64,000 bases of DNA from a bacterium (lineage in GTDB: Bacteria > Patescibacteriota > Minisyncoccia > Phycocordibacterales > Phycocordibacteraceae). How positions within the stretch are numbered: position 1 is the first letter of the stretch; every line of letters begins with the position of its first letter. The stretch is taken from NCBI GenBank assembly GCA_023269085.1, contig JAHFML010000001.1:190356-254355 (forward strand), read 5' to 3'. Under the pieces are notes generated by a model, which worked only from the letters and a program-made list of their open reading frames with translations, ran no database searches and was not told where the DNA came from. Positions 4,917 to 63,453 of the stretch are shown here, in pieces. Made by a program: the position numbers and the translations under genes.

Positions 4917-5366
4917 TCAGACGTTCACCGCCTTGGGAGAGTCCGACCTTCCCAAGAATCGTGCGGCGATGAATTTGTAAATGACGAGGATCGCGCTGAT
5001 GACGGTGAAGACTCCACCCATGAGGCGGGCGGCATCGTCACGATAGAAGCTGGAGAAGTTCAGCCCGATACCGCTCCAGCTCACCGGTGTCGTCGCGATA
5101 TATAAGAAGGCGAGCGGCAGAGCCCACACCGCGAACCGTAGCCACGACTTGAAGATCTCACGCGGGACGAAAATGAGGATGATGGTGATGGGGAGAATGT
5201 AGAGGGCGAAATAATAAAGTGGTTTGGTGATATCCAATGCTATTTGGTGTATCCATGTACCGTAGCAAGAAGAAACGGAGTTTATGCACCAAAGACTAAA
5301 ATATCGGAACCCTATAACAAGAAGAACGAGTACAGCCGGCACATATTGCATCATTCTTGATTTCAT
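4917..5366 (-). CDS. small polytopic membrane protein, paralog A
   Basis: 149 aa; C-terminal ~100 aa nearly identical to 5451..5894. Confidence 0.5.
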   Translation of the reverse strand: MKSRMMQYVPAVLVLLVIGFRYFSLWCINSVSSCYGTWIHQIALDITKPLYYFALYILPITIILIFVPREIFKSWLRFAVWALPLAFLYIATTPVSWSGIGLNFSSFYRDDAARLMGGVFTVISAILVIYKFIAARFLGRSDSPKAVNV

Positions 5367-5450
5367 ATTTTAGAAAAAGTTTATGAGAGCGACCCAGAGC
5401 CTATGCAGATTAGTATAAACCCCGCTCGCCACATTCTAATTTGTAGACAC

Positions 5451-5894
5451 CTAGTGTCCTACACTCCGGCGGGCGCGGGCGGCGATGAATTTGTAAATGA
5501 CGAGGAACGCGCTCACGACCGAGAAGACTCCGCCCATGAGGCGCGCGGCATCGTCGCGGTAGAAGCTGGAAAAGTTCAGCCCGATACCGCTCCAGCTCAC
5601 CGGTGTCGTCGCGATATACAGGAAGGCGAGCGGCAGTGCCCACACGGCGAACTTGAGCCACGATTTGAAGATCTCGCGCGGGACGAAAATGAGGATGATG
5701 GTGATGGGGAGAATGTAGAGGGCGAAATTGTAAAGAGGGTACCCTATGCCTTTTATACTATCGTCTAAACAACCCGTATGGTTGCTAAATTGATACATCG
5801 TACTGCATATATGAAAGGCGAGAGGATTACTCAGTACATAGCCAATCAAAGTAGCAAGCAAAACAACGGCTACCGGAAATATTCTTGATTTCAT
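5451..5894 (-). CDS. small polytopic membrane protein, paralog B
   Basis: 147 aa; tandem paralog of 4917..5366. Confidence 0.5.
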   Translation of the reverse strand: MKSRIFPVAVVLLATLIGYVLSNPLAFHICSTMYQFSNHTGCLDDSIKGIGYPLYNFALYILPITIILIFVPREIFKSWLKFAVWALPLAFLYIATTPVSWSGIGLNFSSFYRDDAARLMGGVFSVVSAFLVIYKFIAARARRSVGH

Positions 5895-5897
5895 AAT

Positions 5898-8735: not shown

Positions 8736-8757
8736 TGAGTAAGGTTCGACCTTACTC
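8736..8757. repeat. REP-like palindrome (copy 2) followed by CCTAAGAATTCACTGCT companion motif
   Basis: TGAGTAAGGTTCGACCTTACTC plus a 17-nt motif shared with ~9337. Confidence 0.55.
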
Positions 8758-9259: not shown

Positions 9260-9304
9260 GAGTACATAATAGCATTTTCATAATTGAACAAGATGATAGC
9301 AAAC

Positions 9305-9334
9305 AAAAAACCACCCCGAGGGGTGGTTTTTTGT
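9305..9334. terminator. bidirectional rho-independent terminator (CCACCCCGAGGGGTGG hairpin between A-run and T-run)
   Basis: seen in sequence just downstream of the 9393..12758 gene. Confidence 0.6.
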
Positions 9335-9352
9335 TTCCTAAGAATTCACTGC

Positions 9353-9375
9353 TGAGTAAGGTCGAACCTTACTCA
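9353..9375. repeat. REP-like palindrome (copy 3)
   Basis: TGAGTAAGGTCGAACCTTACTCA. Confidence 0.55.
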
Positions 9376-13148: not shown

Positions 13149-13173
13149 TTGAGTAAGGTCGGACCTTACTCAA
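13149..13173. repeat. REP-like palindrome (copy 4)
   Basis: TTGAGTAAGGTCGGACCTTACTCAA directly after the stop codon of 13174..14046. Confidence 0.55.
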
Positions 13174-14046
13174 CTAGGCGAGGGAGTAGGTGCTCCAACG
13201 GCGCTCGCCGGTCTTCTCTACCGTGCCCGCCGCGACGAGGCTTGCGAGCTCGCGCTGGATGGTCTTCTCGGAGACGCCGCGGATCATCGTCGAGATGTCT
13301 TTGATGCTCACGCTCCCCTTCTGCCGTATCAGAGACAGCACCGTTTCGCTTCTGTCCTTTATCTGCGGGCGGTGTCCTTTATCTGTTTTCTGTTCATGTC
13401 CTTTATTCTGCATCTCCACTTTGCGCGTCGCCGGACGCGGCACGGCCGAACTGGTCGAGGCGGCGCGTGCGGTCGCCGACGCCTCTTGTCGTGGCATCTG
13501 CCTTGCGATGTCGGCGAGCGTCGGCGCGTCATCGAGGAAGAGGCGCGGCTCTTCGTAGGCCGCCACTTCTTGAAGTAAAACATGGGCTTCACGCGCAATG
13601 AGGTCGGCGTTCATCGCCGAGAGGAGACCGCCGGTGCGTGCGATAGCGAGCACGCTCGAGAGAGCGAGGAGCTCCCGCGAGAGTGCGAGCCGCGCACCAC
13701 CGGGTGGCAATACCGCAGCGTCGATGAGACCGATAGCGACCGCGTCGATCCGATCGCGGAGCGAAGGCGCTTCGATGAAGGCAGGGGCCACGAGATGGAG
13801 CGCTTTGGCGAGCCGCTCGGCCTTCTTGTAGATAAAGACGCGGCGTATGTCCTTTTCAAATATGTTATTGAATATGCTTTTTTCTAAGACAAAGTCTTCT
13901 TGTCGGGCTTGGCTCGCGGGAGTATGCGGGTTTCGCGCTTCAAGCTGGTGTCCTAGAGATGTTGCTTCGCGTCCCATACGTATATAGGACAGTATACGCG
14001 CGCGCGCTTGCTCTGCAACTGCGCTCTCCTCGCCCACCCCCCACAA
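13174..14046 (-). CDS. hypothetical protein with C-terminal winged-helix DNA-binding domain
   Basis: C-terminal SVSIKDISTMIRGVSEKTIQRELASLVAAGTVEKTGERRWSTYSL; internal KGHEQKTDKGHRPQIKD repeat; true start uncertain. Confidence 0.4.
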   Translation of the reverse strand: MWGVGEESAVAEQARARILSYIRMGREATSLGHQLEARNPHTPASQARQEDFVLEKSIFNNIFEKDIRRVFIYKKAERLAKALHLVAPAFIEAPSLRDRIDAVAIGLIDAAVLPPGGARLALSRELLALSSVLAIARTGGLLSAMNADLIAREAHVLLQEVAAYEEPRLFLDDAPTLADIARQMPRQEASATARAASTSSAVPRPATRKVEMQNKGHEQKTDKGHRPQIKDRSETVLSLIRQKGSVSIKDISTMIRGVSEKTIQRELASLVAAGTVEKTGERRWSTYSLA

Positions 14047-16632: not shown

Positions 16633-17679
16633 ATGGCATTCAAAAAACCCGCAAAAGAAAAAGTGTTGAAGACCGTCTCTGCCGCGAGTGATGATAAAGA
16701 CGAGCGGCAGAAGTCGATTGACCAAGCGCTCAAAGATATCCGTGCGAAGTTCGGCGATGAAGCGATCTCGGTCTTCGGCGCTGGCACCCCGAAGAAGATA
16801 CCGGCGATACCGACCGGCTCGATCGGCCTCGACGCCGCGCTTGGCATCGGCGGTCTCCCCCGCGGCCGGATCATCGAGATCTTCGGCCCCGAGAGCTCTG
16901 GCAAGACGACGCTCGCGCTCCACTCGATCGCCGAGGCGCAGCGGCTCGGCGGCATCGCGGCCTTCGTCGACGCCGAGCACGCGCTCGACCCCGAGTATGC
17001 GCGACGCATCGGCGTGAAGCTGACCGAGCTCCTCATATCTCAGCCCGACACCGGCGAGCAAGCGCTCGATATCGTCGAGAGCCTCGTGCGGAGCGGCAAT
17101 GTCGATATTATCGTCATCGACTCGGTCGCGGCGCTCACACCGAAGGATGAGATCGAGGGCGAGATGGGCCAACAACATGTCGGCAAGCAGGCACGCCTCA
17201 TGAGCCAAGCCCTACGCAAGCTCACCGCCATCGTCGCGCGATCGAAGACCATCGTCATCTTCATCAATCAGATCCGCATGCAGATTGGCGTCATGTTCGG
17301 CAACCCCGAGACCACGCCGGGCGGCAAGGCGCTCAAGTTCTACACTTCAGTGCGCCTCGACATTCGCCGTATCGCGAGTATCAAGAAGGGCGAAGAGGTC
17401 GTCGGTGGCCGCGTGCGGGTGAAGGTGGTCAAGAACAAAGTCGCCGCGCCCTTCAAGACGACCGAGTTCGACCTGCTCTACAACGAGGGCATCAGCAAGG
17501 AGGGCGAGCTTCTCGCGCTCGGCGAGAAGTATGAGCTCGTGCAGAAGAGCGGCGCCTCCTACAAGATGGGCGAAGTCGCGCTCGGTCGGGGCTATGACGC
17601 CGCACGCACCTTCCTCCGTGAGAACAAGCCCGTCGCCAAAGACCTCTTGAAGCAAATCGAGGCGAAGCTGGGGGAATAG
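16633..17679 (+). CDS. recA: recombinase RecA
   Basis: 348 aa; [12 protein letters not shown] Walker A and canonical RecA core. Confidence 0.97.
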
Positions 17680-17722: not shown

Positions 17723-17944
17723 TTACGCAAGGAGACCTCCAACGATGGCCTCGATGGTCGATTCGCGATCCTTCACATTTGCGGGGCAACATGTGTAAAT
17801 CGCATACATAACAAGTATGGTCGTGAGATTGTTCCTCACAATCTCGATGAGTCGCGCGCGACTTATTCCTGACGATTTGATTTCCGCAGGGTTATTTTCC
17901 TGCACCGTCCACTTGATAAAGTCCGTATCCAATTCCGTGGTCAT
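17723..17944 (-). CDS. hypothetical small protein
   Basis: 73-aa ORF, no recognisable domain. Confidence 0.2.
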   Translation of the reverse strand: MTTELDTDFIKWTVQENNPAEIKSSGISRARLIEIVRNNLTTILVMYAIYTCCPANVKDRESTIEAIVGGLLA

Positions 17945-18025
17945 TTGACTATCTCCTTGTGTACAAGCCGAGATGACTGTACCTCAAACAGTTGCCCAAA
18001 GCAACTTGGACATCCGATGTCCAAG

Positions 18026-18367
18026 TTACGGAATCGGATGTTTCGCGAGATACGCGACGAGAGGCGTCTTGAGTGTTGGCAGATCAGAGACAATGGTATT
18101 CCAAACGAGCGAGAGGACGATGTCATAATACTCGTGCGCGACGATGTTGCGGAAGCCGATGATCTTCTTCCACGGTACGTCGACCTCTTCTCTCGTCGCA
18201 TCAGAAACGCGCTTCGCCATCTCACCGATCTGTTGCATCTGCATCAGGACTGCGCTTTGCTTCTGCTCGTCTCTTTCAAAATCCTCGAACGATACGTCGC
18301 CAACAAAGCGCTGAACCTTGTCGATATTCTCGATCATTTGTGCGATGTAGGGGCTATCCTCTTTCAT
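18026..18367 (-). CDS. hepT: HepT-like (HEPN/DUF86) toxin
   Basis: 113 aa; HEPN Rx4-6H motif RNIVAHEY; paired with upstream MNT gene. Confidence 0.7.
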   Translation of the reverse strand: MKEDSPYIAQMIENIDKVQRFVGDVSFEDFERDEQKQSAVLMQMQQIGEMAKRVSDATREEVDVPWKKIIGFRNIVAHEYYDIVLSLVWNTIVSDLPTLKTPLVAYLAKHPIP

Positions 18368-18668: not shown

Positions 18669-19022
18669 CTATGCCCGAGCAGGGGTGATGAAAAATTGAG
18701 CGAGGAGGCGGGCGGTCTCGCGGGCGAGGATGATGAGGGCGAGGAGCGTGGCGACGATGAGCGCCTCGACGAGGAAATGCGTGTGGAAGAAAGCGGAGAG
18801 CCAGAAGCTCGTCTGTGCCGAGAGGCTCGCGACCTGTGGCATGTTCGCGAAGACCTTCGCGACCCACACTTCCCTCCCGATGCCATAGAGCGCGGCCGCC
18901 GCAACGGCGGCCGCGAGAACCGTGTTCGAAGCAAGCGCCCGCAAGACACGCATGCGGTACACGCGCTTCATCACGACTCTTTCGATACTGGTAGGTTGTT
19001 CAGTCATAGTGTTGCTTATCAT
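18669..19022 (-). CDS. putative membrane anti-sigma factor
   Basis: 117 aa, one TM segment, overlaps the 3' end of the ECF sigma gene. Confidence 0.35.
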   Translation of the reverse strand: MISNTMTEQPTSIERVVMKRVYRMRVLRALASNTVLAAAVAAAALYGIGREVWVAKVFANMPQVASLSAQTSFWLSAFFHTHFLVEALIVATLLALIILARETARLLAQFFITPARA

Positions 19023-19596
19023 ACGCTTGTTTAAAAAGTTTTTTCGCCCGATGCACGCGCGTCTTCACGGCCGGGATCGAGAGCCGCTCGCTCGCAGCAA
19101 TCTCCTCCTGCGTCTTGCCCTCGATAAATTGTAACCGCAAGATACGCGACGCGGTTTCGGGAAGCTTCGCAAGTGCCATAACGACCTCGTCGCGAATCGT
19201 GAGATCCTCGATGAAGCCACCCCGCTCGTCGGGCAGAGATTCATAATGCTCCGGCTCGAGCTCGACGACCTTGCCCCAAAGCCGTCTCTGCCCCGCATAA
19301 CGCGTGTAGGCGACGCGATTGAGGATAGTGTACATCCACGAGGCGAAGGTCGCGCCCTCTTGCGGAACATACTTGTCGGCATAGAGATACATCTTGGTGA
19401 AGGCGTCCTGCACGACCTCTTCGGCATCCTCGGGGCTCCGCACTATCACCTTCGCACGGCGTAGAAGCGCGGCCTCGTGTCGCCGGACGAGAATGGCGAA
19501 GAGCTCCGGCTCCTGGCGGGAGCGCGCGAGCACCGTAGCGTCCCCGAGCGCCGCGAGATCCTCGGTAGTTGAAAAAGTCATGGTTGCCTGTATCAT
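19000..19596 (-). CDS. ECF-family RNA polymerase sigma factor (sigma-70 regions 2 and 4)
   Basis: 198 aa; region 2 (DAEEVVQDAFTKMY...) and region 4 HTH (EGKTQEEIAASERLSIPAVKTRVHRAKKL). Confidence 0.75.
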   Translation of the reverse strand: MIQATMTFSTTEDLAALGDATVLARSRQEPELFAILVRRHEAALLRRAKVIVRSPEDAEEVVQDAFTKMYLYADKYVPQEGATFASWMYTILNRVAYTRYAGQRRLWGKVVELEPEHYESLPDERGGFIEDLTIRDEVVMALAKLPETASRILRLQFIEGKTQEEIAASERLSIPAVKTRVHRAKKLFKQAYDKQHYD

Positions 19597-20236: not shown

Positions 20237-20242
20237 GTGGAA

Positions 20243-20291
20243 GCAAATGCAAAACACGCGGCGCCGAAGGCGCCGCGTGTTTTGCATTTGC
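20243..20291. terminator. bidirectional GC-rich hairpin terminator between efp and rpsR
   Basis: GCAAATGCAAAACACGCGGCGCC-GAAG-GGCGCCGCGTGTTTTGCATTTGC; sequence family shared with the hairpin at ~748. Confidence 0.5.
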
Positions 20292-20304
20292 TCTCTGAAA
20301 TCGC

Positions 20305-21497: not shown

Positions 21498-22298
21498 CTA
21501 CGAGAGTGCAAACACGCGGCGGGTGGTGGCGAGGAGGGTGGCGCGGACAGCCTCGGGGTCGTCGCCACGCACTTCGGCAATCTTCGTAGCCACATCGATA
21601 ACCGCGAGCGGGTCGTTCCTCTGCCCGCGGCGCGACGCGGGCGCGACATAGGGCGCGTCGGTCTCCGCGAGCATGCTCGTGAGCGGCACGGTGCGAATGA
21701 CCTCGTCGTAGTCGCGCGCGAAAGTGATGACCGCGGTGAAGGAGAGCGTGAAGCCGAGCGCGATGAATGCTTCTGCTTCGGGAACACCACCCGCGAAGAA
21801 GTGCATGTCCCCGCGCAGGTTTTGATGCGCCTGTTTCGCTTCAGCGAGCATGGTGATAATGTCGTGGTACGCGTCCATCGAACCTTTGCTCGGGCGGGCG
21901 TGGATGATGAGCGGCAGGTCGAGCTCGGCGGCGAGCGCGATGTGCTGCTTGAAAAGCTCTTTCTGCCCCTCCTTCGTCGTATCGTCGACAATAGTCGGTC
22001 TAAAATAATCGAGCCCGCACTCCCCTATCGCGACCACCTTCGATTGGTGTGCCAACTCCCGAATATTGGACATATCATGTCCAATATTCGGGAGTTCGTT
22101 CGGGTGGACACCGACGGCCGCATACAGGTGCTCATGCTTCTGCGCGAGCTCGACCGCCACCCGCGATGACGCGAGGTCGCACCCGACCACAATCGCGCCC
22201 ACACCCTGCTCAAGCATCTGTGCGACAATCATTTCTCTATCCGCATCGTACTGGGCGAATTGCAGGTGACAGTGCGCGTCGATGTAGCGAGGCGTCAT
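21498..22298 (-). CDS. tatD: TatD-family metal-dependent DNase/hydrolase
   Basis: 266 aa; IDAHCHL...VGVHP...AIGECGLDY motifs. Confidence 0.85.
   Translation of the reverse strand: MTPRYIDAHCHLQFAQYDADREMIVAQMLEQGVGAIVVGCDLASSRVAVELAQKHEHLYAAVGVHPNELPNIGHDMSNIRELAHQSKVVAIGECGLDYFRPTIVDDTTKEGQKELFKQHIALAAELDLPLIIHARPSKGSMDAYHDIITMLAEAKQAHQNLRGDMHFFAGGVPEAEAFIALGFTLSFTAVITFARDYDEVIRTVPLTSMLAETDAPYVAPASRRGQRNDPLAVIDVATKIAEVRGDDPEAVRATLLATTRRVFALS
22054..22096. repeat. 43-bp inverted repeat inside tatD CDS (19-nt arms AACTCCCGAATATTGGACA / TGTCCAATATTCGGGAGTT, 5-nt spacer)
   Basis: seen in sequence; core TTGGACAT-N3-ATGTCCAA also at ~18007. Confidence 0.7.
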
Positions 22299-28545: not shown

Positions 28546-29115
28546 CTAGGGATGCTTCCTATTCTTTCTCAAGCTTGAAAAGATTTTATACACCTCGACG
28601 AACGAACCGCGCTTATTCATCCATTCTGGAGGATTGCCCGGCTTGAATCCTATCCACCATGTGTCATGTCCACGTTCGCCACCATGCTGATGCTTCAATT
28701 TCTTGAACGGAATATCCTTTTTGTTGAAAATCCATATTTGTGCGTCGAACGGCGAGATGCCGATACAAATAAGAAACTTATAGTTTTGATCTCGCAATTG
28801 CTGAAAGACATACTGGCCGTTTTCCCACTCGGTCGAAAATTTTATTTCCACTCGCTCGCCCTCGATGATACGGTCCGCATCACTATCCGGTGATCGCACC
28901 ACGTCGAACCCGCGCGCGGCGCACCATCCGGCGATCAACTGTTCGCCGATTTTGCCACGCTGGCGCGATGGTCGGTGTAGTATCCATTCGAACGGGCTCC
29001 CCTGCCAGCGCGCGGCATCTGCTTTTTCATATTCTCCACGAAGCCCGAGTGCAATGCTCGCAAGCAATTCAACGTCTTTATTTTTTAGGCGGCGTTCACT
29101 CATAGTAATTGGCAT
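28546..29115 (-). CDS. putative type II restriction endonuclease (PD-(D/E)xK)
   Basis: 189 aa; SPDSDAD...EGERVEIKFS fits PD...ExK; 16-bp overlap with upstream methyltransferase. Confidence 0.5.
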   Translation of the reverse strand: MPITMSERRLKNKDVELLASIALGLRGEYEKADAARWQGSPFEWILHRPSRQRGKIGEQLIAGWCAARGFDVVRSPDSDADRIIEGERVEIKFSTEWENGQYVFQQLRDQNYKFLICIGISPFDAQIWIFNKKDIPFKKLKHQHGGERGHDTWWIGFKPGNPPEWMNKRGSFVEVYKIFSSLRKNRKHP

Positions 29116-29984
29116 TGTGCTCGTTGCGGGACTCGTATCGGTGATGGTACGGCGCCCTGCGCAAAAGAAACTTCTTTATATTTTTCAAAGCGCTTCTTCA
29201 TTACCTCAATCGCTTCAGGGTTGCTGTCCACGAGGACAAACTCTCGCCCAAGCTCAAGCGCGGCTTCACCGAAGGTTCCGCTCCCGGCAAAAAAATCCAT
29301 GACCGTATCTCCCTCCTGCGAGGACGCGAGAACAATACGACGAATAATACCAAGTGGTTTTTGCGTCGGGTATCCGGTCTTTTCTTTTCCATTCGGACTC
29401 ACGATAGTGTGCCACCACGTGTCGGTCGGTGTCTTACCGAGCGCGGCTTTTTCAGGACCGACGAGCCCGGGTGCCATGTAGGGGATGCGATCGATCTCAT
29501 CATAATTGAAAATGTAATTCTCCGCGTCCTTCGCGTACCAGAATATCGAGTCGTGCTTCGCTGGCCATTTGTTTTTGCTCCGAGCGCCATAGTCATACGC
29601 CCAGATTATTTCATTCAAGAAATTCCCACGACCAAAGATGGTGTCGAGCAGAATTTTGCAGTAGTGCGCTTCGCGATAATCGATATGAAAATATATGCTG
29701 CCGTCTGCTGTCAAAATACGATGCGCTTCGTGTAATCGGGGTTCAAGAAATCCTAGGTAATCGTCAAATGCATCGTGATACGATTTTTCTCCAAGCACGG
29801 TCGTTCGATAGGTGTTTCCTTTAAATCCTATTCGGTCTCCTTGTTCATCGCGCGTTGTCTTGAGCTGTTTGCGAGATTGGACTTTGCCAGTATTAAACGG
29901 CGGATCGATATAGATAAGCGAAACCGATTCTGATGGCATCATGCGCAATGCCTCAAGATTATCGGCAAAAATGACCTTGTTCAT
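29100..29984 (-). CDS. DNA methyltransferase, beta-class (N6-adenine or N4-cytosine)
   Basis: N-terminal DPPF motif IV (LIYIDPPFNTG), C-terminal FxGxG motif I (FFAGSGTFGEAA). Confidence 0.85.
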   Translation of the reverse strand: MNKVIFADNLEALRMMPSESVSLIYIDPPFNTGKVQSRKQLKTTRDEQGDRIGFKGNTYRTTVLGEKSYHDAFDDYLGFLEPRLHEAHRILTADGSIYFHIDYREAHYCKILLDTIFGRGNFLNEIIWAYDYGARSKNKWPAKHDSIFWYAKDAENYIFNYDEIDRIPYMAPGLVGPEKAALGKTPTDTWWHTIVSPNGKEKTGYPTQKPLGIIRRIVLASSQEGDTVMDFFAGSGTFGEAALELGREFVLVDSNPEAIEVMKKRFEKYKEVSFAQGAVPSPIRVPQRAQCQLL

Positions 29985-30583: not shown

Positions 30584-30684
30584 GATGTTCGGACGTATGT
30601 TCGGACTTACGAAGTCCCGCCATTGGGAGATTCTCTAGACTCAAGAGTTCAACAAACATCGCAATAATAGGACTTCGTAAGTCC

Positions 30685-33600: not shown

Positions 33601-34119
33601 CTCATAGACAAGCCCTTTGTCATAGACCTGCTTGAAGACCCACCAGACCGACTCCATGAAGGACGGGCTCATCGTCAAATAGGCGTGCTCCATATCGACC
33701 CAGCGCCCGATGCGCGGGATAATCTTCTTCCATTCGTCCGCATATTCAAACACGCTCGACCGACAGCGCTCATTGAACTTCTCCACGCCGTACGCCTTGA
33801 TATCCTTTTTATGTTTGAAGCCGAGCTCCTTCTCTATCATGTTCTCGATCGGGAGACCGTGCGTGTCCCAGCCCCACACCCGCGGGACATGATAGCCGCG
33901 CATCGTGAAGTAGCGCGGGACAGCGTCCTTGATAACGCTCGCGACAATGTGGCCATAGTGCGGCAGGCCGGTCGCGAAGGGCGGGCCATCGTAGAAAACA
34001 TATTCGCCCTTGGGCGCTTCCTTCGCGAGCGACTGCTCAAAAACCTTCTCGCGTTCCCAGAATGCGAGCGTCGCCTCCTCCCGCACGGCTGTTTCTGATT
34101 TTTCTGGCATAGACTCCAT
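30685..34119 (-). CDS. ileS: isoleucyl-tRNA synthetase (type 2) with embedded histidine-phosphatase (PGAM-like) domain
   Basis: start at MESMPEKSE; HYGH and KLSKS motifs; editing domain; ~195-aa insert with RHG and SH motifs (see findings). Confidence 0.9.
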   Translation of the reverse strand: MESMPEKSETAVREEATLAFWEREKVFEQSLAKEAPKGEYVFYDGPPFATGLPHYGHIVASVIKDAVPRYFTMRGYHVPRVWGWDTHGLPIENMIEKELGFKHKKDIKAYGVEKFNERCRSSVFEYADEWKKIIPRIGRWVDMEHAYLTMSPSFMESVWWVFKQVYDKGLVYEDYRSMHICPRCETTLSQQEVAEGYKDVKDISVTVKFKIKNPEKLGLSGEVYLLAWTTTPWTLPGNVALAVGENIEYEVREVDGQTHIVAAPATAEKSSDLLAPLGQTISSRPVRLLVGRDLVGLEYEPPFDYYKNDATLKNRENGWKVYAADFVTTDTGTGVVHIAPAFGEDDMALGKKENLPFIQHVQGDGTMKSEVTDFAGREVKPKSDDDKVRLGTDIEVIKYLQEHGTFFSKENLVHSYPHCWRCDTPLLNYATTSWFVAVTKVKDDLLKNAESIAWSPAHIKEGRFGKWLEGARDWSISRQRFWASVMPLWKDAAGEITVIGSVDELKKHTKKSGNTYFVMRHGESLANVEDVMSTTAKTAMKHPLTEVGRAQAKAGAQTLVTAGGVDIIITSPLLRTKETAEIVADELGLARSAIITDERFFEKSAGIFDGKPIAEYSMFFSGTSDRFSLAPEGGETGEQVRHRVGAALYDLEKQYTNTRILIVSHKNPVRSLRLIASGKTKEYRHAFNPIEYATPYPLDFTPLPHNGDYELDLHLPYIDEVQLVNDAGEPLTRVSDVLDTWFDSGAMPYAQGHYPFENKEQFEKTFPAQFIAEGVDQTRAWFYYLHVFAGALFNKPAFEQVIVNGIVVSSEDGKKLSKSKKNYPDPLLIVEKYGADALRYYLLVSPVVQAENLAFAEKGVDEVAKKNIGRLMNVLAFYQLYVDGTPSAATSTNILDRWILARLAELLKESTEGYESYELDRAVRPLALFIDDLSAWYVRRSRDRFKEEGGDKRDALATMRHVLAELSKVMAPAMPFIAEEVYRAVREESEPESVHLCDWSHFADAASRGTLDSSDKVSSLIADMARVRAFASEALQLRQKAGIKVRQPLASLTIFEPLTSELSAVLADEVNVKEILVGNELALDTTLTPELIREGDEREMASAIAQARKAEGLAPGDAVEVVQGEGPHSVTLSTGPVQFKLVRA

Positions 34120-34120
34120 A

Positions 34121-35788
34121 TTACATCCTCTCGGGTGCGCTGACGCCGAGGAGCGTGAGGCCATTCGTCATCGTGGTGGCGAAGGCGCGCGCGACGCGCT
34201 GTTTGTACGCCTCTTCGGGGCTCCCGAGCACTTGTTCGGATGCATAAAAAGAATTCCACGTGGCGGCAAGCGCGGTGAGGTAGGTGGTGAGAATATTCGG
34301 CGCGAGCTCCCGCGCGGCGCGCGCGACTACTTCAGGATAATGCAGGATGAGCCGCTCGATAGCATAGGGCTCGGATGGTTCTTCAATCCCGCCTTCTCCA
34401 TTCTCAGCATACGCGAGGATCTTCTTCGCCCGCACAAGCGCATACTGGAGATACGGCCCCGAATCGCCCTCGAGCGAGAGCGACTGCTCGGGGTCGAAGA
34501 TAATGTCCGAGCCCGGCGCTTGGCGCAGGATCATATATTTGATAGCACCAATAGCGACTTGCTCGGCCACATGCGGGTCCGGGTTCTTCACGAGCGCCTT
34601 GCCGATGATCTCGGTAATCAGGGCATCGGCCGTGATAACATTCCCCTCGCGCGAGCTCATCTTGCCCGAGGTGAGGCGCAAGAAGCCGTGCGGCACGTGC
34701 CGGGTCTTGGCCGCTATCGCCGGCGCGAGCTCGGCGAGCGCCGCGAGCACCACCTTGAAGTGTCCGATCTGCTCGGCTGCCGTCACGATAATCGAACGAT
34801 CATTCGGGACTCGCTCCTCTTTCAAAAAAGCGAGCCCGATGTCCTTGGCCTCATAGGTCGGCGTACCGCGACTTGTAACAAAAACGAGCGTGTGGAGCCC
34901 AACCTTCTCACCACGATAAATCACGGCGCCTTCGCTCTCTTCAAAAATTCCCTTTGCAATACCGTCATGCACCATGCGCGTACCTGGCTCGGCAGTCTCG
35001 CTCTCAAAAAAATACTGATCGAAATGTGTGCCGAGATGCTGATATATCTTCTCAAATGCTTCGAGTGATACAGCGCGCCCCTTCCGCCACAGATCCATGA
35101 CTGCCGTGTCGCTCGCCGTATAAATAACCGTGTTCAACGCATCGATTTCTGCCTTCGCTTCAGGCGAATCTTCATAGGCTTGGTTACCCGCAACATACGC
35201 CTCGCTCAATTCAAGCGTCGTGGTTGGTTCAACGATGCCGACTTTTTGCAATCCCCACAACGCCTTCGCGACATGCGGCCCGACATCGCCCTGATAATTT
35301 GCACGGATGACCGTCGCGCCTTCGTTCTCGATAAGCCGCGAGATTGATTCGCCAATCGTATTGCTCATCAAATGCCCAATATGCATTGCTTTGAATGGGT
35401 TCGGGTCGGTATACTCGATCACGACGCGCTGGCCTTCTTGCACATTCCCCTTCCCCCATCCTGTGCCTTGCGCAGAAGCCTCGGTGATGGCGCGCGCGAC
35501 GGCCGCGCGCGAAAGCGTGATGTTGATGAAGCCCGGGCCCGCGACCTCGATACTCTGTATCGAGGTCGGGCCGAGCACCGTCGAGACCCTGAGTTCTTTG
35601 ACCAGAAGCTCGGCCACCTCTTGTGGTCGTTTGCCAAGTTGCTTCGCCGCCGCTAGGGCCGCATTCGTCGCGTAGTCGCCATGCGTCATCTCGGTCGGCT
35701 GTTCGACGACAAAGGCGCCTGTCTGCCCGGCAGGCAGGCCAAGCTCCCGCAGGGCGCCAGCAACCGCTTCTCGAATCTTCTCTTCCAT
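34121..35788 (-). CDS. argS: arginyl-tRNA synthetase
   Basis: 555 aa; class I core with HVGH-type motif; C-terminal DALR anticodon-binding domain. Confidence 0.93.
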   Translation of the reverse strand: MEEKIREAVAGALRELGLPAGQTGAFVVEQPTEMTHGDYATNAALAAAKQLGKRPQEVAELLVKELRVSTVLGPTSIQSIEVAGPGFINITLSRAAVARAITEASAQGTGWGKGNVQEGQRVVIEYTDPNPFKAMHIGHLMSNTIGESISRLIENEGATVIRANYQGDVGPHVAKALWGLQKVGIVEPTTTLELSEAYVAGNQAYEDSPEAKAEIDALNTVIYTASDTAVMDLWRKGRAVSLEAFEKIYQHLGTHFDQYFFESETAEPGTRMVHDGIAKGIFEESEGAVIYRGEKVGLHTLVFVTSRGTPTYEAKDIGLAFLKEERVPNDRSIIVTAAEQIGHFKVVLAALAELAPAIAAKTRHVPHGFLRLTSGKMSSREGNVITADALITEIIGKALVKNPDPHVAEQVAIGAIKYMILRQAPGSDIIFDPEQSLSLEGDSGPYLQYALVRAKKILAYAENGEGGIEEPSEPYAIERLILHYPEVVARAARELAPNILTTYLTALAATWNSFYASEQVLGSPEEAYKQRVARAFATTMTNGLTLLGVSAPERM

Positions 35789-44370: not shown

Positions 44371-44589
44371 ACTACAAAAAGAGGTCGTGCGTTCACCGGA
44401 CGCCTTGCGTCCGGTTTTCATTTTGTGCCCGGGAGGCTTGGCCACGCATAATTTCTTGCTAGAAATTTGCGCGAGCCCCGCCTCGCGCCGTCGCGCTCCG
44501 GCCTTCAAGTCCTTGCTCCTGTTTGCTCCGCAAACAGTTGCGCCTCCCGGCCAAAATGAAAAGCACCCTTTCGGGTGCTTTTCATTTTG

Positions 44590-51031: not shown

Positions 51032-51445
51032 CTAGCGCCTATTTTGCCTAGTTAGGTAACTCGTGAGGATGAGCGCCGCGGCTGAAGCGTCGACATTCGC
51101 GCGCGCCTTCGGCGCGCGCGTCTTCACCTCCTTCTCGGGCGCGCGGTGCGCCTCGGCGCTCGTGAAGACTTCATTCTCGAAATATACGGGCACATTCGTA
51201 CGCTCTGTAATCTGTTTACCGAGCATGACCGCACTTTTGGCGATCGGATTGTGCCCACCCGCGAGCGTCCGTGAGTCCCCGATGACGACGGCTCGCACCT
51301 GTTCTCGCGAAATGAGCGCGCAGAGATCCTCAATGAGTCGCGGCGAGTTCGTGACCACCGAATTCGGGAACCCCATCATCCCCATCTCATCCGAGAGCGC
51401 GAGGCCGACCTTCGAGCTCCCATAGTCAATGCCGAGGTGTCGCAT
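51032..51445 (-). CDS. ruvX: Holliday-junction resolvase-like RuvX/YqgF
   Basis: 137 aa; LGIDYGSSKVGLALSD N-terminus. Confidence 0.9.
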   Translation of the reverse strand: MRHLGIDYGSSKVGLALSDEMGMMGFPNSVVTNSPRLIEDLCALISREQVRAVVIGDSRTLAGGHNPIAKSAVMLGKQITERTNVPVYFENEVFTSAEAHRAPEKEVKTRAPKARANVDASAAALILTSYLTRQNRR

Positions 51446-59420: not shown

Positions 59421-59687
59421 TTATGCTTTTGCCTTTGCGACGGCGAGCGCGAGACGCGATTTCTTCCGATCTGCCGTGTTTGCCTTGATGACCCCCGTCT
59501 TCTTTGCTTTGTCGATTGCCTTGTAGGCGATTGGGAGCAGTTTCTCTGCGCCCGTCACGTCCTTGGCGACGAGCGCCTTCGTGAGCGACTTGGTGGTATC
59601 GCGCAAGACATTCTTGCGACGCAGGTTGAAGACGCGCTTCTTGTCCGAAGAACGGATCGCCTTTTTTGCCGAGCTGGTTATTGCCAT
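59421..59687 (-). CDS. rpsT: 30S ribosomal protein S20
   Basis: start at MAITSSAKKAIRSSDKKR; canonical S20. Confidence 0.9.
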   Translation of the reverse strand: MAITSSAKKAIRSSDKKRVFNLRRKNVLRDTTKSLTKALVAKDVTGAEKLLPIAYKAIDKAKKTGVIKANTADRKKSRLALAVAKAKA

Positions 59688-59744
59688 GTGCGCCCACAAT
59701 ACTGCATGCGCTCGATACGCGCAAGAGGTTCGTTGTTGAAGCAA

Positions 59745-59771
59745 ACGGGTGGACACTAGGTGTCCACCCGT
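59745..59771. promoter_or_regulatory. 27-bp perfect palindrome ACGGGTGGACAC-TAG-GTGTCCACCCGT in the divergent rpsT/ruvA intergenic region; candidate operator
   Basis: seen in sequence; identical 23-bp core recurs at ~63183 and related half-sites elsewhere. Confidence 0.5.
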
Positions 59772-59804
59772 CAAACACACCAACTATCGTGATAGGATGT
59801 CCTC

Positions 59805-60350
59805 ATGATTCGGAACATCCGGGGCAACGTCCTTTCTATTGGCACCGCAAGCGCGGTTATCGAGGTCGCGGGCTTCGGTATCGAGGTACGCATGAACGCG
59901 CCCGAAGTGCTCGCGCTCGGCACTGAGGCCTCGCTCGCGACGCATCTCACCCTCAAGCAGGACGGCCTTGAGCTCTATGGCTTCATGAGCGAAGCCGATC
60001 GCGATTTCTTCGAGCTTATTCTCTCGGTCTCGGGGGTGGGGCCGAAGACAGCGCTTGGCGTCTTGCGCCGTTCCTCGCGAGAGGCGCTCGCAGGAGCTAT
60101 CGGCTCGCGCGATCTCACCTATCTCACCAAGGTGGTCGGGCTTGGTAAAAAGAGCGCCGAGAAGATGCTCGTCGAGCTCGCCGACAAGATTACCGCCACG
60201 ACTCATGACGATGCTGACGGCGAAGTCTTCGACACGCTCGTCGCGCTCGGCTACACCGAGCGCGAAGCGCGCGCGGCCTTACAAGCTGTTCCTGCCAGCA
60301 TTGTGGGGAAGGACGCCCGGCTCAAGGCCTCGCTCGGCGCGCGCGCCTAA
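59805..60350 (+). CDS. ruvA: Holliday junction DNA helicase RuvA
   Basis: 181 aa; OB domain + HhH pair (SVSGVGPKTALGVL) + C-terminal domain III. Confidence 0.9.
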   Translation: MIRNIRGNVLSIGTASAVIEVAGFGIEVRMNAPEVLALGTEASLATHLTLKQDGLELYGFMSEADRDFFELILSVSGVGPKTALGVLRRSSREALAGAIGSRDLTYLTKVVGLGKKSAEKMLVELADKITATTHDDADGEVFDTLVALGYTEREARAALQAVPASIVGKDARLKASLGARA

Positions 60351-62727: not shown

Positions 62728-63453
62728 CTAGATTGAAAGAGAAAATTTCTCAAGCGCAAGCGGGAGGGCGAGGCCAGAGCGGCGGGAGGATTGGAGGAGA
62801 GCGATGAGGGCGAGCGAGAGCTCACGCGCTTCGGCGGGCGACCACGCCGACCCTCTTCCCTGCCTACCGGCAGGCAGGTCCATCAGGTCGCGCGCCTTCC
62901 AGTGCAAGAGGCCATGGAGCATCTCCGGTGCATCGCCGGCGACCAGAGCGCGATGGAGCTCGAGCCAGAGCCGCTCGCGGTTCTTCGCGCCAAGGGCGTC
63001 GACGAGAGCGGAGTTGAAGCCCCGCGCCGCTCCGCGGCGCGGGGTCGTCGTATCGAATTGATATCCGACCTTGGCGAGCACTGCAATCTTCTTCGCTTTC
63101 GCTGTCGCGAGAGCGGGCGCGAGGATGATGATGGCATTGTCCGATGCCGCGAGCGCGTCGAGATGCGCGTCGAGCACATTTTGGGTGGACACTAGGTGTC
63201 CACCCGCATCTTCTGTTTCTTCTTCGGTGTTTACACTACGTGCGAGCGGGTAGGGGTCGTCGATGAGCACGAGAAGCCGCGAGACGAAGAGCCCGCCCGA
63301 GAGCGCCGCATCAGTGAGCGCGGCGCCGGTCAGCTCTTCCCGCGCGAGGCGCGCATACGCGAGGTTCGGCTCCTTCGCGCGCGCCTTCGCGACCCACTCA
63401 AAGGCCTTCATGCGCACTTTCTCCGTGTCGGTGCCGTAGAAAAAGTAAATCAT
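62728..63453 (-). CDS. holA: DNA polymerase III delta subunit-like (HolA)
   Basis: 241 aa; N-terminal MIYFFYGTDTEKV... clamp-loader delta pattern; contains in-frame GGGTGGACACTAGGTGTCCACCC palindrome. Confidence 0.6.
   Translation of the reverse strand: MIYFFYGTDTEKVRMKAFEWVAKARAKEPNLAYARLAREELTGAALTDAALSGGLFVSRLLVLIDDPYPLARSVNTEEETEDAGGHLVSTQNVLDAHLDALAASDNAIIILAPALATAKAKKIAVLAKVGYQFDTTTPRRGAARGFNSALVDALGAKNRERLWLELHRALVAGDAPEMLHGLLHWKARDLMDLPAGRQGRGSAWSPAEARELSLALIALLQSSRRSGLALPLALEKFSLSI
63183..63205. repeat. second copy of the GTGGACAC-TAG-GTGTCCAC palindrome, inside holA coding sequence (encodes GGHLVST)
   Basis: 23 bp identical to the rpsT/ruvA intergenic palindrome. Confidence 0.7.

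What the first reader, a model, noticed from the sequence alone, without database searches (positions are those of the whole stretch)
59745..59771. Recurrent GGACAY-N3-RTGTCC inverted-repeat motif, including an identical 23-27 bp palindrome in the rpsT/ruvA promoter region and inside holA
ACGGGTGGACAC-TAG-GTGTCCACCCGT sits alone in the divergent rpsT/ruvA intergenic region, which is operator-like. ruvA is DNA-damage-regulated in many bacteria. The same 23-bp core GGGTGGACACTAGGTGTCCACCC occurs in frame inside holA (~63183-63205, coding GGHLVST). Related sites are:
- TTGGACAT-ATC-ATGTCCAA inside tatD (~22066-22084, centre of a 43-bp inverted repeat).
- TTGGACAT-CCG-ATGTCCAA at the hepT stop (~18007-18025).
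- AGACAC-CTA-GTGTCC spanning the stop codon of 5451..5894.
That is five instances of one dyad family in 64 kb, three of them inside coding sequence. This suggests either a regulator operator (possibly the local damage-response box) or a small palindromic mobile repeat.
Basis: seen in the sequence. Interest (0 to 1): 0.6.

Follow-up and report, generated by a model that had tools for sequence, protein, structure and literature searches.

The report
Spreading DNA hairpin repeats, not operator
The motif is real and far beyond chance, but it is a family of short hairpin-forming DNA repeats that come and go between related Paceibacteria (CPR) genomes, sitting between genes and even in frame inside housekeeping genes, and not a conserved binding site for a DNA-damage regulator.

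Summary
All five sites exist as described: four exact GGACAY-N3-RTGTCC matches against 0 expected, plus one with a single mismatch. A 24-nt palindrome is identical in the rpsT/ruvA spacer and inside a clamp-loader-delta-like ("holA") ORF.

The operator reading fails its own test. In 24 of 28 related genomes with divergent ruvA and rpsT, the spacer is 53-68 bp and holds no palindrome. The window has a lineage-specific ~62-bp insert there. There is no site upstream of recA.

The same kind of palindrome appears sporadically in relatives, at the same tolerant spots of proteins:
- the HolA-like disordered linker (6 of 120 homologs);
- a TsaE loop (21 of 119);
- a TatD loop (7 of 120).

Copies within one genome share even the 3-nt loop. 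Window site 4 translates to the source genome's own TsaE loop (QLGHPMSKF). One arm is usually conserved native codons and the other its inverted copy, and stems covary.

Best reading (about 0.6): REP/RPE-like palindromic repeats that are copied between sites and then perfected or extended in place by template switching. They lack the GTAG/CGTC tags of classical REPs, and no transposase lies in the window. A selected RNA or DNA hairpin function is not excluded. This is a new variant of a known kind, of moderate interest.

The parts
59745..59771 (.). Site 1: perfect 12+3+12 palindrome ACGGGTGGACAC-TAG-GTGTCCACCCGT in the rpsT/ruvA spacer
   Evidence: As a DNA hairpin it folds at -14.6 kcal/mol, z = -7.4.
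59725..59789 (.). Lineage-specific ~62-bp net insert that carries site 1. It lies between the putative rpsT -35 (rc TTGCGC, 59719-59724) and the ruvA extended -10 (TGATAGGAT, 59790-59798).
   Evidence: Closest-type relatives (L025, L033, L064, L056) have only TAG between GCGCAA and TGATA(C/G)GAT. Their spacers are 53-68 bp against 117 bp here. The flanks of the insert have no other copy anywhere. The promoter hexamers are my reading of the alignment; the consensus scan found none.
63183..63206 (.). Site 2: 24 nt identical to site 1 (10+3+10 palindrome). It is in frame in the HolA-like ORF 62728..63453 (-) and codes G84-G-H-L-V-S-T90.
   Evidence: It lies in a hypervariable acidic linker, where homologs are mostly 228-233 aa against 241 here. 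The linker is modelled as unstructured, with pLDDT below 50 for residues 72-90.
22054..22096 (.). Site 3: perfect 20+3+20 palindrome inside tatD (21498..22298, -), coding ELPNIGHDMSNIREL
   Evidence: -21.7 kcal/mol. The loop has the same length as in homologs (21 aa), but NHxxDExFDxxxY is replaced. The right arm is the native I-R-E-L codons.
22100..22111 (-). Half-site GGTGTCCACCCG, the GVHP codons of TatD. It is 12 nt identical to the right arm of sites 1 and 2. Unexplained.
   Evidence: The sister genome uses GGCGTGCACCCG at this position.
18003..18027 (.). Site 4: perfect 11+3+11 palindrome AACTTGGACAT-CCG-ATGTCCAAGTT, directly after (and overlapping) the hepT stop and 58 nt upstream of small ORF 17723..17944 (-)
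   Evidence: The 25-mer is identical (as reverse complement) to the tsaE-loop palindrome of relative L069. In frame it translates to QLGHPMSK, which matches the TsaE loop of the source genome itself (P0360).
5443..5462 (.). Site 5: imperfect palindrome GTAGACAC-CTA-GTGTCCTAC (one bulge). Its loop is the TAG stop of ORF 5451..5894 (-).
   Evidence: -4.4 kcal/mol, z = -2.4. It has the same TAG/CTA loop as sites 1 and 2. The paralogous ORF 4917..5366 has a different C-terminus.

Best explanation
The five sites belong to a family of short hairpin-forming palindromic repeats in a Paceibacteria (Parcubacteria, CPR) genome. The core is GGACAY-NNN-RTGTCC, with perfect arms of 6-20 nt around a 3-nt loop. 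They resemble REP/RPE elements and are not regulator binding sites.

Shown:
- They are present or absent among related genomes.
- They occupy tolerant places: spacers, gene ends (where they can donate the stop codon), and disordered linkers or loops of housekeeping proteins, in frame.
- Identical copies occur at unrelated places in one genome.

Inferred mechanism, in two steps:
1. A core hairpin is copied to a new site. This may be done by a hairpin-specific single-strand DNA enzyme such as a Y1/HUH REP-associated transposase, which is found with its own flanking hairpins in a relative. It may instead happen by ectopic templated repair.
2. The palindrome is then kept perfect and grows outward in place by intrastrand template switching during replication. 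One arm (often conserved native codons) is copied in inverted form over the other, less constrained side.

Any effect on ruvA or rpsT expression would be a by-product of the insert separating the two back-to-back promoters.
For: (1) Not conserved where an operator should be. In 24 of 28 relatives with divergent ruvA/rpsT the spacer is 53-68 bp and holds no 3-nt-loop palindrome. The window has 117 bp, with a ~62-bp insert.

(2) Sporadic at the same protein spots.
- HolA-like linker: the base state is 40-41 residues of the extracted linker stretch without a palindrome in most of 65 loci, and longer linkers carry perfect palindromes of at least two unrelated sequence types. GH.[VM]S occurs in 6 of 120 homologs at one position.
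- TsaE loop: 21 of 119 homologs.
- TatD loop: 7 of 120 homologs.
- Turnover: the sister genome (82-86% aa identity) has a different palindrome in the holA linker and an imperfect version in tatD.

(3) Copying between sites.
- Sites 1 and 2 share 24 nt.
- Site 4 is the same 25-mer as in L069 tsaE, and it translates to the source genome's own TsaE loop. I predicted this before the search.
- In L010, tsaE and holA share a 17-mer with the same C.A mismatch.
- Loops are shared within a genome: window TAG x3, L010 CGG x3, L028 GGC x2.
- GGACAT-CCG-ATGTCC recurs in tsaE, holA, tatD and a spacer in different genomes.

(4) Growth in place. The right arms equal conserved native codons: (S)KF(K/A)R in TsaE, IREL in TatD, (Y)ILE in HolA. 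The left arms are their inverted copies.

(5) Concerted arms. In the TsaE hairpin, 6 of 12 pairs have compensatory changes. The covariation score is 0.365 against 0.187, reached by 0 of 500 shuffles.

(6) Genome-wide habit. Perfect palindromes with a 3-nt loop and arms of at least 8 nt number 21 in the window against 1.2 in shuffles.

(7) A Y1_Tnp gene sits in the ruvA-rpsT gap of relative L010. It scores 28.9 bits against a cut-off of 23, has HFH and YIHLNP motifs, and is flanked by inverted GTAGCAAGGG-TAG-CCCTTGCTAC hairpins.

(8) Literature. REPs occur inside replication and repair genes, form inverted dimers and supply TAG stops (PMC3733652). Template switching makes imperfect inverted repeats perfect (PMC7202029 and PMC5941160).
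Against: - No transposase or Y1_Tnp was found among the window ORFs scanned. The only Y1_Tnp seen in 97 loci is flanked by a different hairpin sequence.
- No target-site duplication or defined element ends were found. The flanks of site 1's insert have no other copy.
- The copy number seen is low (5 in 64 kb), and the rest of the source genome could not be read.
- The tatD case is a same-length replacement, not an insertion.
- Recurrence at the very same protein loops, stem covariation, and a 2:1 excess of G.U over A.C mismatches on the sense strand (18 vs 9; one-sided changes are G.U) could equally mean selection for a hairpin function.
- The TsaE identity for site 4 rests on a peptide. The source tsaE DNA was not seen.
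Confidence: 0.6

Rival explanations
1. Operator of a transcription factor, for example the local SOS/damage box. A dimer binds GGACAY-N3-RTGTCC in the ruvA/rpsT promoter region, and the other sites are regulon members or decoys.
For: - The core dyad recurs far beyond chance.
- Site 1 lies between two divergent promoters next to ruvA.
- Two other CPR genomes show paired adjacent sites in spacers: L001 upstream of mraZ, and L007.
Against: - 0 of 28 relatives have it in the ruvA/rpsT spacer.
- None lies upstream of recA, and most sites in relatives are inside coding sequence.
- Arms extend to 20 perfect nt with site-specific sequence.
- The tip changes to GGAGGT, GGAAGT or GGGGGT at the orthologous TsaE site.
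- The centre triplet is identical within a genome but differs between genomes.
- Site 1 lies upstream of the ruvA -10/-35 region rather than over it. This is my reading; no promoter was called.
Confidence: 0.06
2. Selected structural hairpins. The palindromes are kept because the hairpin itself does something: in mRNA (processing site, 3'-end stabiliser, terminator or pause signal within operons such as tsaE-polA-holA), or in DNA (cruciform or single-strand signal). Similar tips would then reflect a shared reader protein.
For: - Compensatory changes keep the TsaE stem paired, with 0 of 500 shuffles reaching the observed covariation score.
- The hairpin is widespread at that TsaE position.
- G.U outnumbers A.C mismatches on the sense strand, 18 to 9. 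The sister tatD hairpin continues with G.U pairs.
- Three window sites sit at gene ends, where REP-like hairpins are thought to act as RNA elements (PMC3733652).
- This genome's terminators are also perfect 3-nt-loop palindromes.
Against: - Site 1 lies between divergent promoters and is probably not transcribed.
- There is no T-run after any site.
- Most relatives lack the holA and tatD hairpins altogether.
- Stems are exact Watson-Crick complements up to 20-27 nt, which fits DNA-level copying better than RNA selection.
- Arm-to-arm conversion by template switching also produces covariation without function.
- The G.U excess is not significant and could reflect strand-biased deamination.
Confidence: 0.2
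3. Pure mutational by-product with no mobility. Each palindrome arose independently in place by template switching at chance short inverted repeats, and the shared GGACAY tip is convergence (for example from Gly-His...Ser codons).
For: - Arms contain native conserved codons, and the sister genome has an imperfect version.
- There is a general excess of perfect 3-nt-loop palindromes of many sequences.
- There is literature support for preferential perfection of inverted repeats.
Against: - Independent origin cannot give 24-25-nt identities between unrelated loci.
- It cannot explain the same mismatch in two L010 copies.
- It cannot explain genome-specific shared loops.
- It cannot explain the same 15-mer in three different genes of different genomes.
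- The pattern is about 80-fold over the uniform-base expectation in the relatives' DNA: 12 non-redundant sites in the holA-centred loci against ~0.15 expected (my arithmetic).
Confidence: 0.1
4. Pairs of DnaA boxes (GTGTCCAC resembles the high-GC box TTGTCCACA), marking an origin or a DnaA-regulated promoter.
For: In the Taylorbacteria locus L001 the palindrome TGTGGACAC-CTA-GTGTCCACA lies within 130 bp of two perfect TGTGGATAA boxes and one TATCCACA. The similarity to the actinobacterial box is from memory.
Against: - Canonical boxes are not enriched in the window (9 with at most 1 mismatch against 7.1 expected), and none is near the sites.
- The window arms read GTGTCCACC, which misses the conserved final A.
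- The TTGGACAT subfamily and the covarying tips do not fit a DnaA box.
- There is no skew turning point at 59-63 kb.
Confidence: 0.03

Closest known systems
REP / BIME elements (repetitive extragenic palindromes; GTAG- and CGTC-tagged super-families; mobilised by RAYT Y1 transposases)
   Same: - They are short (about 20-45 bp) stem-loop repeats that are dispersed and species-variable.
- Some lie inside genes for replication or repair proteins, some supply TAG stop codons, and some occur as inverted dimers. L010 and L095 have inverted pairs.
- A RAYT-like Y1_Tnp flanked by inverted hairpins exists in a relative.
- The literature features come from PMC3733652.
   Different: - There is no unpaired GTAG or CGTC tag.
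- Stems are perfect with a strict 3-nt loop.
- Most copies seen are intragenic and in frame, and the copy number seen is low.
- Arms are site-specific and include host codons.
- No RAYT is flanked by this sequence.
Rickettsia palindromic elements (RPE)
   Same: Palindromic repeats inserted in frame into functional protein-coding genes of a reduced genome. They are tolerated in surface loops or linkers (as summarised in PMC3733652).
   Different: RPEs are longer (on the order of 100-150 bp, from memory) and are defined sequence families in Rickettsia. The elements here have a core of 15 nt and total 23-57 bp. Part of each palindrome is made from the host gene's own sequence.
Quasipalindrome correction by replication template switching (Ripley model; E. 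coli thyA and lacZ reporters)
   Same: This process turns imperfect inverted repeats into perfect ones and can extend them. It explains the perfect arms, the native-codon arm with an inverted-copy arm, the imperfect sister-genome version, and arm covariation.
   Different: It is a mutational process, not an element. On its own it does not explain identical copies at unrelated loci or genome-specific shared loops.
LexA/SOS boxes and other palindromic operators
   Same: A dyad-symmetric 6-3-6 core. One copy lies in a promoter region next to a recombination-repair gene.
   Different: It is not conserved in position, it is mostly intragenic, its half-site is variable at orthologous sites, and its arms are far longer than a protein footprint needs. 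No similarity to any LexA motif I can recall. The Patescibacteria SOS paper (PMID 28618189) could not be read.

Membership tests
REP (GTAG/CGTC-tagged repetitive extragenic palindromes) | Short (about 20-40 bp) palindromic stem-loop unit | tested here: met
   Units are 23-43 bp and fold as hairpins at -10 to -22 kcal/mol.
REP (GTAG/CGTC-tagged repetitive extragenic palindromes) | Unpaired GTAG or CGTC tag at one end of the stem | tested here: not met
   The flanks of the 5 window sites and about 12 sites in relatives show no consistent tag. GTAG occurs only inside the stem of site 5 and of L028/L081. CGTC straddles the stem end of site 1 only.
REP (GTAG/CGTC-tagged repetitive extragenic palindromes) | Many dispersed copies per genome (tens to thousands) | tested here: inconclusive
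   There are 5 copies in 64 kb, plus one inferred in tsaE. The source contig (307 kb) could not be fetched, and the exact 17-mer is not recurrent in any GTDB representative genome.
REP (GTAG/CGTC-tagged repetitive extragenic palindromes) | Association with a RAYT (Y1 HUH transposase) flanked by the same repeats | tested here: inconclusive
   No Y1_Tnp was found in the window ORFs scanned. One Y1_Tnp in relative L010 is flanked by a different hairpin, GTAGCAAGGG-TAG-CCCTTGCTAC.
REP (GTAG/CGTC-tagged repetitive extragenic palindromes) | Predominantly extragenic, downstream of genes | tested here: not met
   In the window, 2 sites are in CDS, 2 are at stop codons and 1 is in a promoter spacer. 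In relatives, 12 of 14 non-redundant sites are in CDS. That sample is centred on holA and tatD, so it is biased.
RPE-type in-frame palindromic insertions | Inserted in frame in genes that remain intact, adding residues in tolerant regions | tested here: met
   HolA-like linker +3 to +15 aa, TsaE loop +2 to +15 aa, with the ORFs intact. The linker is modelled as disordered.
RPE-type in-frame palindromic insertions | Element of about 100-150 bp belonging to the Rickettsia RPE sequence families | tested here: not met
   Units are 23-57 bp and the organism is Paceibacteria. The RPE size is from memory, and no sequence comparison with RPEs was run.
Transcription-factor operator / SOS box | Positional conservation upstream of orthologous genes in related genomes | tested here: not met
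   0 of 28 ruvA/rpsT spacers in relatives carry it.
Transcription-factor operator / SOS box | Sites upstream of core damage-response genes (recA, lexA, uvr) | tested here: not met
   recA (16633..17679) and ssb have no site upstream. The nearest site, site 4, is 324 nt downstream of recA on the far side of a convergent gene. lexA and uvr genes are not in the window.
Transcription-factor operator / SOS box | Specific binding by a regulator | not testable with these tools
   This needs EMSA or DAP-seq. The only HTH-domain protein found among the window ORFs scanned is the DeoR-like 13174..14046. An ECF-type sigma factor (19000..19596) was also found.
Template-switch-perfected inverted repeat | One arm is pre-existing native sequence and the other its inverted copy; less perfect versions exist in close relatives | tested here: met
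   Seen in TsaE, TatD and HolA arms. The sister genome L094 has a perfect 6+3+6 core with outer arms only about 70% complementary.
DnaA-box cluster / origin | Local enrichment of TTATCCACA-type boxes | tested here: not met
   9 matches with at most 1 mismatch against 7.1 expected, and none near the sites.
Intrinsic terminator | GC-rich stem followed by a T-run | tested here: not met
   The scan of 59600-59900 does not call site 1. No T-run follows sites 2-5 on either strand, as read directly.
Known RNA family (Rfam) | Match to a curated covariance model | tested here: not met
   Only tRNAs were found in the window at gathering score. Nothing was found at the sites in L001-L007 at E of 1 or less.

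The most novel reading that the evidence does not exclude
GGACAY-N3-RTGTCC would be the recognition hairpin of a still unidentified sequence-specific single-strand DNA enzyme. Candidates are a tag-less relative of RAYT/IS200 Y1 transposases or another hairpin nickase. This enzyme would copy a minimal 15-nt hairpin into coding regions of replication, repair and tRNA-modification genes across Paceibacteria. The hairpin would then enlarge itself by fold-back synthesis. That would make it the smallest self-propagating palindromic element described, and a source of protein-loop variation in CPR bacteria. Alternatively, the hairpins would be host-selected RNA or DNA signals embedded in coding sequence.
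Probability: 0.2. Interest if true: 0.7.

Novelty: new variant of a known kind. Interest (0 to 1): 0.42.

Why it matters
- It removes a tempting but wrong annotation. Site 1 is not a damage-response operator for ruvA in a CPR bacterium.
- It shows that reduced Paceibacteria genomes carry tag-less, REP/RPE-like hairpin repeats that enter essential genes in frame at recurrent tolerant loops (TsaE, clamp-loader delta-like, TatD).
- Part of each palindrome is built from the host gene's own codons. That gives a natural case in which copying between sites and template-switch perfection can be told apart.
- I found no description of such repeats in CPR genomes in the searchable literature.
- Practical consequences: these palindromes create His/Met/Cys-containing inserts in otherwise acidic linkers, shift promoter spacing (ruvA/rpsT), donate stop codons, and can mislead motif discovery and alignment-based analysis of CPR proteins.

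Tried and rejected
**Collection scans**
- Exact 17-mer TGGACACTAGGTGTCCA against one genome per GTDB species. Only 7 scattered hits came back, and the source genome was absent.
  - Hits in Chlorobi, Acidimicrobiales, Terracidiphilus, a deltaproteobacterium and Vagococcus have extended palindromic arms.
  - These are what one expects when sampling the huge pool of natural hairpins with a fixed tip, so I do not read them as cross-phylum conservation.
  - Only L001 and L007 (both CPR) have a second adjacent site.
- Viral contigs: 0 hits for the TAG form and 2 uninformative hits for the CCG form.

**Readings rejected**
- DnaA boxes: rejected.
- LexA/SOS: the Patescibacteria SOS paper could not be read. 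The idea was rejected on positional grounds, not by motif comparison.
- Rfam: nothing at the sites.

**Searches that led nowhere**
- Transposase in the window: none in about 50 ORFs scanned with Pfam. A few small ORFs were not scanned.
- A longer element around site 1, or a target duplication: the flanks are unique.
- Source contig DNA beyond the window: not retrievable.

**Inconclusive or peripheral**
- RNA versus DNA level by mismatch type: G.U 18 against A.C 9, suggestive only.
- 'holA' identity by sequence: no Pfam or PDB hit. By fold there is weak support for clamp-loader delta.
Full report
**1. Observation**

All five sites are in the sequence as described, with minor coordinate corrections.
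- Site 1 is ACGGGTGGACAC-TAG-GTGTCCACCCGT at 59745-59771. It lies in the 117-bp spacer between rpsT (59421..59687, -; Ribosomal_S20p) and ruvA (59805..60350, +; RuvA_N/HHH_5/RuvA_C).
- Site 2 repeats the 23-mer exactly at 63183-63205, and the identity runs to 24 nt. It is in frame in ORF 62728..63453 (-) and codes GGHLVST.
- Site 3, inside tatD (21498..22298, -), is a perfect 20+3+20 palindrome at 22054-22096.
- Site 4 is AACTTGGACAT-CCG-ATGTCCAAGTT at 18003-18027. It follows and overlaps the hepT stop codon.
- Site 5 is AGACAC-CTA-GTGTCC at 5445-5459. Its loop is the TAG stop of ORF 5451..5894.

GGACAYNNNRTGTCC has 4 exact matches against 0.00 expected in shuffles. As DNA hairpins, sites 1-4 fold at -10 to -22 kcal/mol with z scores of -6 to -10.6.

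**2. Organism and setting**

Homologs of the window's proteins are named Paceibacterota, Minisyncoccia, Parcubacteria or Kaiserbacteria. The window is a CPR chromosome segment of about 57% GC with 10 tRNAs.

The 'holA' ORF has no Pfam or PDB sequence match. JGI calls one homolog a DNA polymerase III delta subunit. A modest AlphaFold model (pLDDT 65) has the B. subtilis clamp-loader delta protein as its best fold match, E 3.5e-4. The palindrome-coded residues 84-90 lie in a segment with no secondary structure and pLDDT below 50.

**3. The operator idea fails the positional test**

I fetched 80 loci around HolA-like homologs from metagenomes. Thirty contain ruvA, and in 28 of those rpsT is its divergent neighbour.
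- In 24 of the 28, the spacer is 53-68 bp and has no 3-nt-loop palindrome with arms of 6 nt or more.
- The other four have unrelated larger insertions.

Aligning the closest spacer type (L025, L033, L056, L064) shows that the window has about 62 extra bases. They lie between GCGCAA (which I read as the rpsT -35, TTGCGC, on the other strand) and the ruvA extended -10, TGATAGGAT. The palindrome sits in the middle of that insert. The promoter elements are my reading; the consensus scan called none.

There is no site upstream of recA (16633..17679) or ssb. Canonical DnaA boxes are not enriched. Rfam finds nothing.

**4. What the sites look like across relatives**

*HolA-like linker.* The linker is hypervariable and acidic. 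I extracted a stretch from the conserved [LI]xDDP motif to the [SD]NA motif. Most of 65 loci have a 40-41-residue stretch with no palindrome. Stretches of 43-55 residues mostly carry a perfect palindrome, of at least two unrelated types:
- the GGACAY type (window, L010 with two copies, L012, L028, L081);
- a type built on ...TTTCGTAAAYCCATCAT-CTG-ATGATGGRTTTACGAAA... (L008, L023, L025), which also occurs in polA of L010.

Six of 120 HolA-like proteins have GH.[VM]S, the in-frame translation of the core, at the same position.

*TsaE.* The loop between SPTF and HIDAYR is 27-29 residues at base and up to 43 with palindromes. GH.[VM]S occurs in 21 of 119 homologs.

*TatD.* The loop after GxHP is 20-21 residues (NHxxDExFDxxxYRELA) in 89 of the 93 homologs whose loop the pattern extracted. 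Seven of 120 homologs have palindrome-coded GH.MS or VGR.TS instead. The window's loop has the normal length, so here the palindrome replaced native sequence rather than adding to it.

*Turnover.* The sister genome GCA_023267715.1 (82-86% protein identity) has the other palindrome type in its holA linker. In tatD it has a perfect 6+3+6 core with only about 70% complementary outer arms. So these features turn over faster than the genes that hold them.

**5. Evidence for copying between sites**

- Sites 1 and 2 share 24 nt although their flanks are unrelated.
- Site 4's 25-mer is identical, as reverse complement, to the TsaE-loop palindrome of L069.
- I predicted that the source genome's own TsaE would carry it. 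The protein on the same 307-kb contig (P0360) has the loop QLGHPMSKF, which is exactly the in-frame translation of site 4. The DNA itself was not seen.
- In L010, the tsaE and holA copies share GGACACCGGATGTCCAC, including the same C.A mismatch.
- Loops are shared within a genome and differ between genomes: TAG three times in the window, CGG three times in L010, GGC twice in L028.
- The 15-mer GGACAT-CCG-ATGTCC turns up in tsaE, holA, tatD and a spacer in different genomes.
- Adjacent copies are often in inverted orientation (L010, L095), as in REP dimers.
- The pattern occurs at 12 non-redundant places in the ~646 kb of holA-centred loci from relatives, where about 0.15 would be expected from uniform base frequencies (my arithmetic). 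Three more lie in the two tatD loci L094 and L095.

**6. Evidence for growth and maintenance in place**

In each coding case, one arm consists of codons that are conserved in homologs without any palindrome, and the other arm is their exact inverted complement:
- TCC AAG TTC GCG CG for (S)KFAR in TsaE;
- ATT CGG GAG TT for IREL in TatD;
- TAC ATT CTC for YIL(E) in HolA.

The inverted arm overwrites or adds to the unconstrained side.

At the TsaE site the stem tip differs between genomes (GGAGGC/GCCTCC, GGGGGT/ACCCCC, GGAAGT/ACTTCC, GGACAT/ATGTCC, GGAGGT/ACCTCC, GTGGCGGT/ACCGCCAC) while staying paired. Six of 12 pairs have changes on both sides. The covariation score is 0.365 against 0.187, reached by 0 of 500 shuffles. 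The alignment has only ten sequences, so this is suggestive.

Perfect palindromes with exactly a 3-nt loop are a habit of this genome. There are 21 with arms of at least 8 nt, against 1.2 in shuffles, and they include its bidirectional terminators.

These properties are what template switching at quasipalindromes produces (PMC7202029; PMC5941160).

**7. Candidate machinery**

In relative L010, the gap between ruvA and rpsT holds a 220-aa Y1_Tnp protein. It scores 28.9 bits against a cut-off of 23 and has HFH and YIHLNP motifs. It is flanked by inverted hairpins GAGTAGCAAGGG-TAG-CCCTTGCTACTC and GTAGCAAGGG-CTA-CCCTTGCTAC, a REPtron-like arrangement.

So hairpin-specific single-strand transposases and 3-nt-loop hairpin repeats do exist in this clade. 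But that hairpin is a different sequence. No such gene is in the window, and it is the only one in 97 loci. The link to the GGACAY family is therefore inference.

**8. Comparison with known kinds**

REPs are 20-40-bp palindromes. They can lie inside replication and repair genes, form inverted dimers and supply TAG stops (PMC3733652), and all of this is seen here.

The defining unpaired GTAG or CGTC tag is absent, the copies seen are mostly intragenic, and no flanked transposase is known. I therefore do not file the family as a REP super-family member. RPEs share the in-frame habit but are longer and specific to Rickettsia.

The family works like a REP/RPE combined with template-switch perfection. 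I rate it a new variant of a known kind.

**9. What remains open**

A selected hairpin function is not excluded. In its favour:
- recurrence at the same loops;
- covariation;
- an 18:9 excess of G.U over A.C mismatches on the sense strand;
- G.U pairs extending the sister tatD stem;
- three sites at gene ends.

Against it:
- site 1 is probably untranscribed;
- most relatives lack the holA and tatD hairpins;
- the stems are exact complements.

Other open points:
- The 12-nt identity between the TatD GVHP codons and the arm of sites 1 and 2 is unexplained.
- The paired sites in L001 (next to canonical DnaA boxes, upstream of mraZ) and L007 hint that the core is older than this clade.
- The rest of the source genome could not be read, so copy number, strand bias and the presence of a transposase are unknown.

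**10. Verdict**

The operator or damage-box reading is not supported. The palindromic-repeat reading is supported in a refined form: copy between sites plus in-place perfection.

| Reading | Confidence |
|---|---|
| Copied and perfected palindromic repeats | about 0.6 |
| Selected structural hairpins | 0.2 |
| Purely local mutational origin | 0.1 |
| Operator | 0.06 |
| DnaA boxes | 0.03 |

Interest is moderate, 0.42.

Noticed in passing
window 791-813, 8737-8757, 9353-9375, 13149-13173: A second palindrome family, (T)GAGTAAGGT-YSR-ACCTTACTC(A), has four copies, all intergenic and next to terminators or gene ends. The copies at 8737 and 9353 adjoin a shared CCTAAGAATTCACTGC. The head GAGTAAGG resembles the GAGTAGCAAGGG hairpins that flank the Y1 transposase in L010, so these may be this genome's true REPs.
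   Followed up: partly
window 30603-30617 and 30670-30684: GGACTTACGAAGTCC and GGACTTCGTAAGTCC are each a 6+3+6 palindrome, and together they form an inverted pair 52 nt apart. They lie between the recO-like ORF and ileS. The same GGACTTCGTAA motif forms the arms of the 'type C' palindrome in the holA linker of L023.
   Followed up: partly
window 22100-22111 (- strand): The TatD GVHP codons GGTGTCCACCCG are 12 nt identical to the right arm of the site 1/2 palindrome. The sister genome encodes the same residues as GGCGTGCACCCG. This is either coincidence or a synonymous ectopic conversion.
   Followed up: partly
window 748-788, 9301-9336, 20242-20292, 44552-44589: The terminator-like hairpins of this genome are long perfect palindromes (17-24-nt arms, loops of 2-4 nt) that include the A-tract and T-tract, so they are symmetric on both strands.
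   Followed up: no
window 2998-3020, 3491-3511, 18891-18915, 51098-51120, 63020-63044: GC-rich perfect palindromes with 3-nt loops (for example CGCGGCGCGC-TTC-GCGCGCCGCG) lie inside coding sequences. The one at 63020 falls in a second variable region of the HolA-like ORF, and relatives have a similar one there (L010 10432).
   Followed up: no
L010 8530-8586 (polA), L012 1861-1897 (tsaE), L008 6874-6916 (holA linker): Very long palindromes lie in frame inside housekeeping genes of relatives: 27+3+27 perfect, 17+3+17 perfect, and 20+3+20 with one mismatch. They are seen in independent assemblies (L010/L011, L012/L013).
   Followed up: partly
L010 14271-14997: A Y1_Tnp (IS200-like/RAYT-like) gene with HFH and YIHLNP motifs is flanked by inverted GTAGCAAGGG-TAG-CCCTTGCTAC hairpins. 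It is inserted, together with two unknown ORFs, between ruvA and rpsT.
   Followed up: partly
L001 2360-2500 (Ca. Taylorbacteria, greA-mraZ spacer): TGTGGACAC-CTA-GTGTCCACA plus a second site, GGACAC-GGT-GTGTCT, lie within 130 bp of two perfect TGTGGATAA boxes and one TATCCACA. This may be an origin or a DnaA-regulated dcw promoter.
   Followed up: no
L002 2980-3270 (Chlorobi MAG): Three tandem units of about 130 bp each contain GAAGATRATTGCTTGGACAY-YAG-GTGTCCAAG in an intergenic region. This is an unrelated repeat array that happens to share the core.
   Followed up: no
L048, L063, L072, L089 ruvA-rpsT spacers; L021, L041 spacers: Other relatives carry different small insertions in the same spacer. 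Some have GTAG-rich repeats (AGGTTGTAGGGAGTAGGTTATAGGTTGTAG). Others have duplicated ACTTGGATTTTTATA...TTAAAAATCTC units. The spacer is a hot spot for small elements.
   Followed up: no
window 28546-29984: An N6/N4 DNA methyltransferase (29100..29984, -) sits beside an ORF with no family match (28546..29115, -). This may be a restriction-modification pair.
   Followed up: no
window 4917-5960: Two tandem paralogous membrane-protein ORFs (4917..5366 and 5451..5894) have near-identical ~65-bp upstream regions. They diverge at the C-terminus, where site 5 supplies the stop codon of one of them.
   Followed up: partly
window 30685-34164: The isoleucyl-tRNA synthetase ORF (1159 aa) has a histidine-phosphatase (His_Phos_1) domain inserted at residues 532-702.
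   Followed up: no
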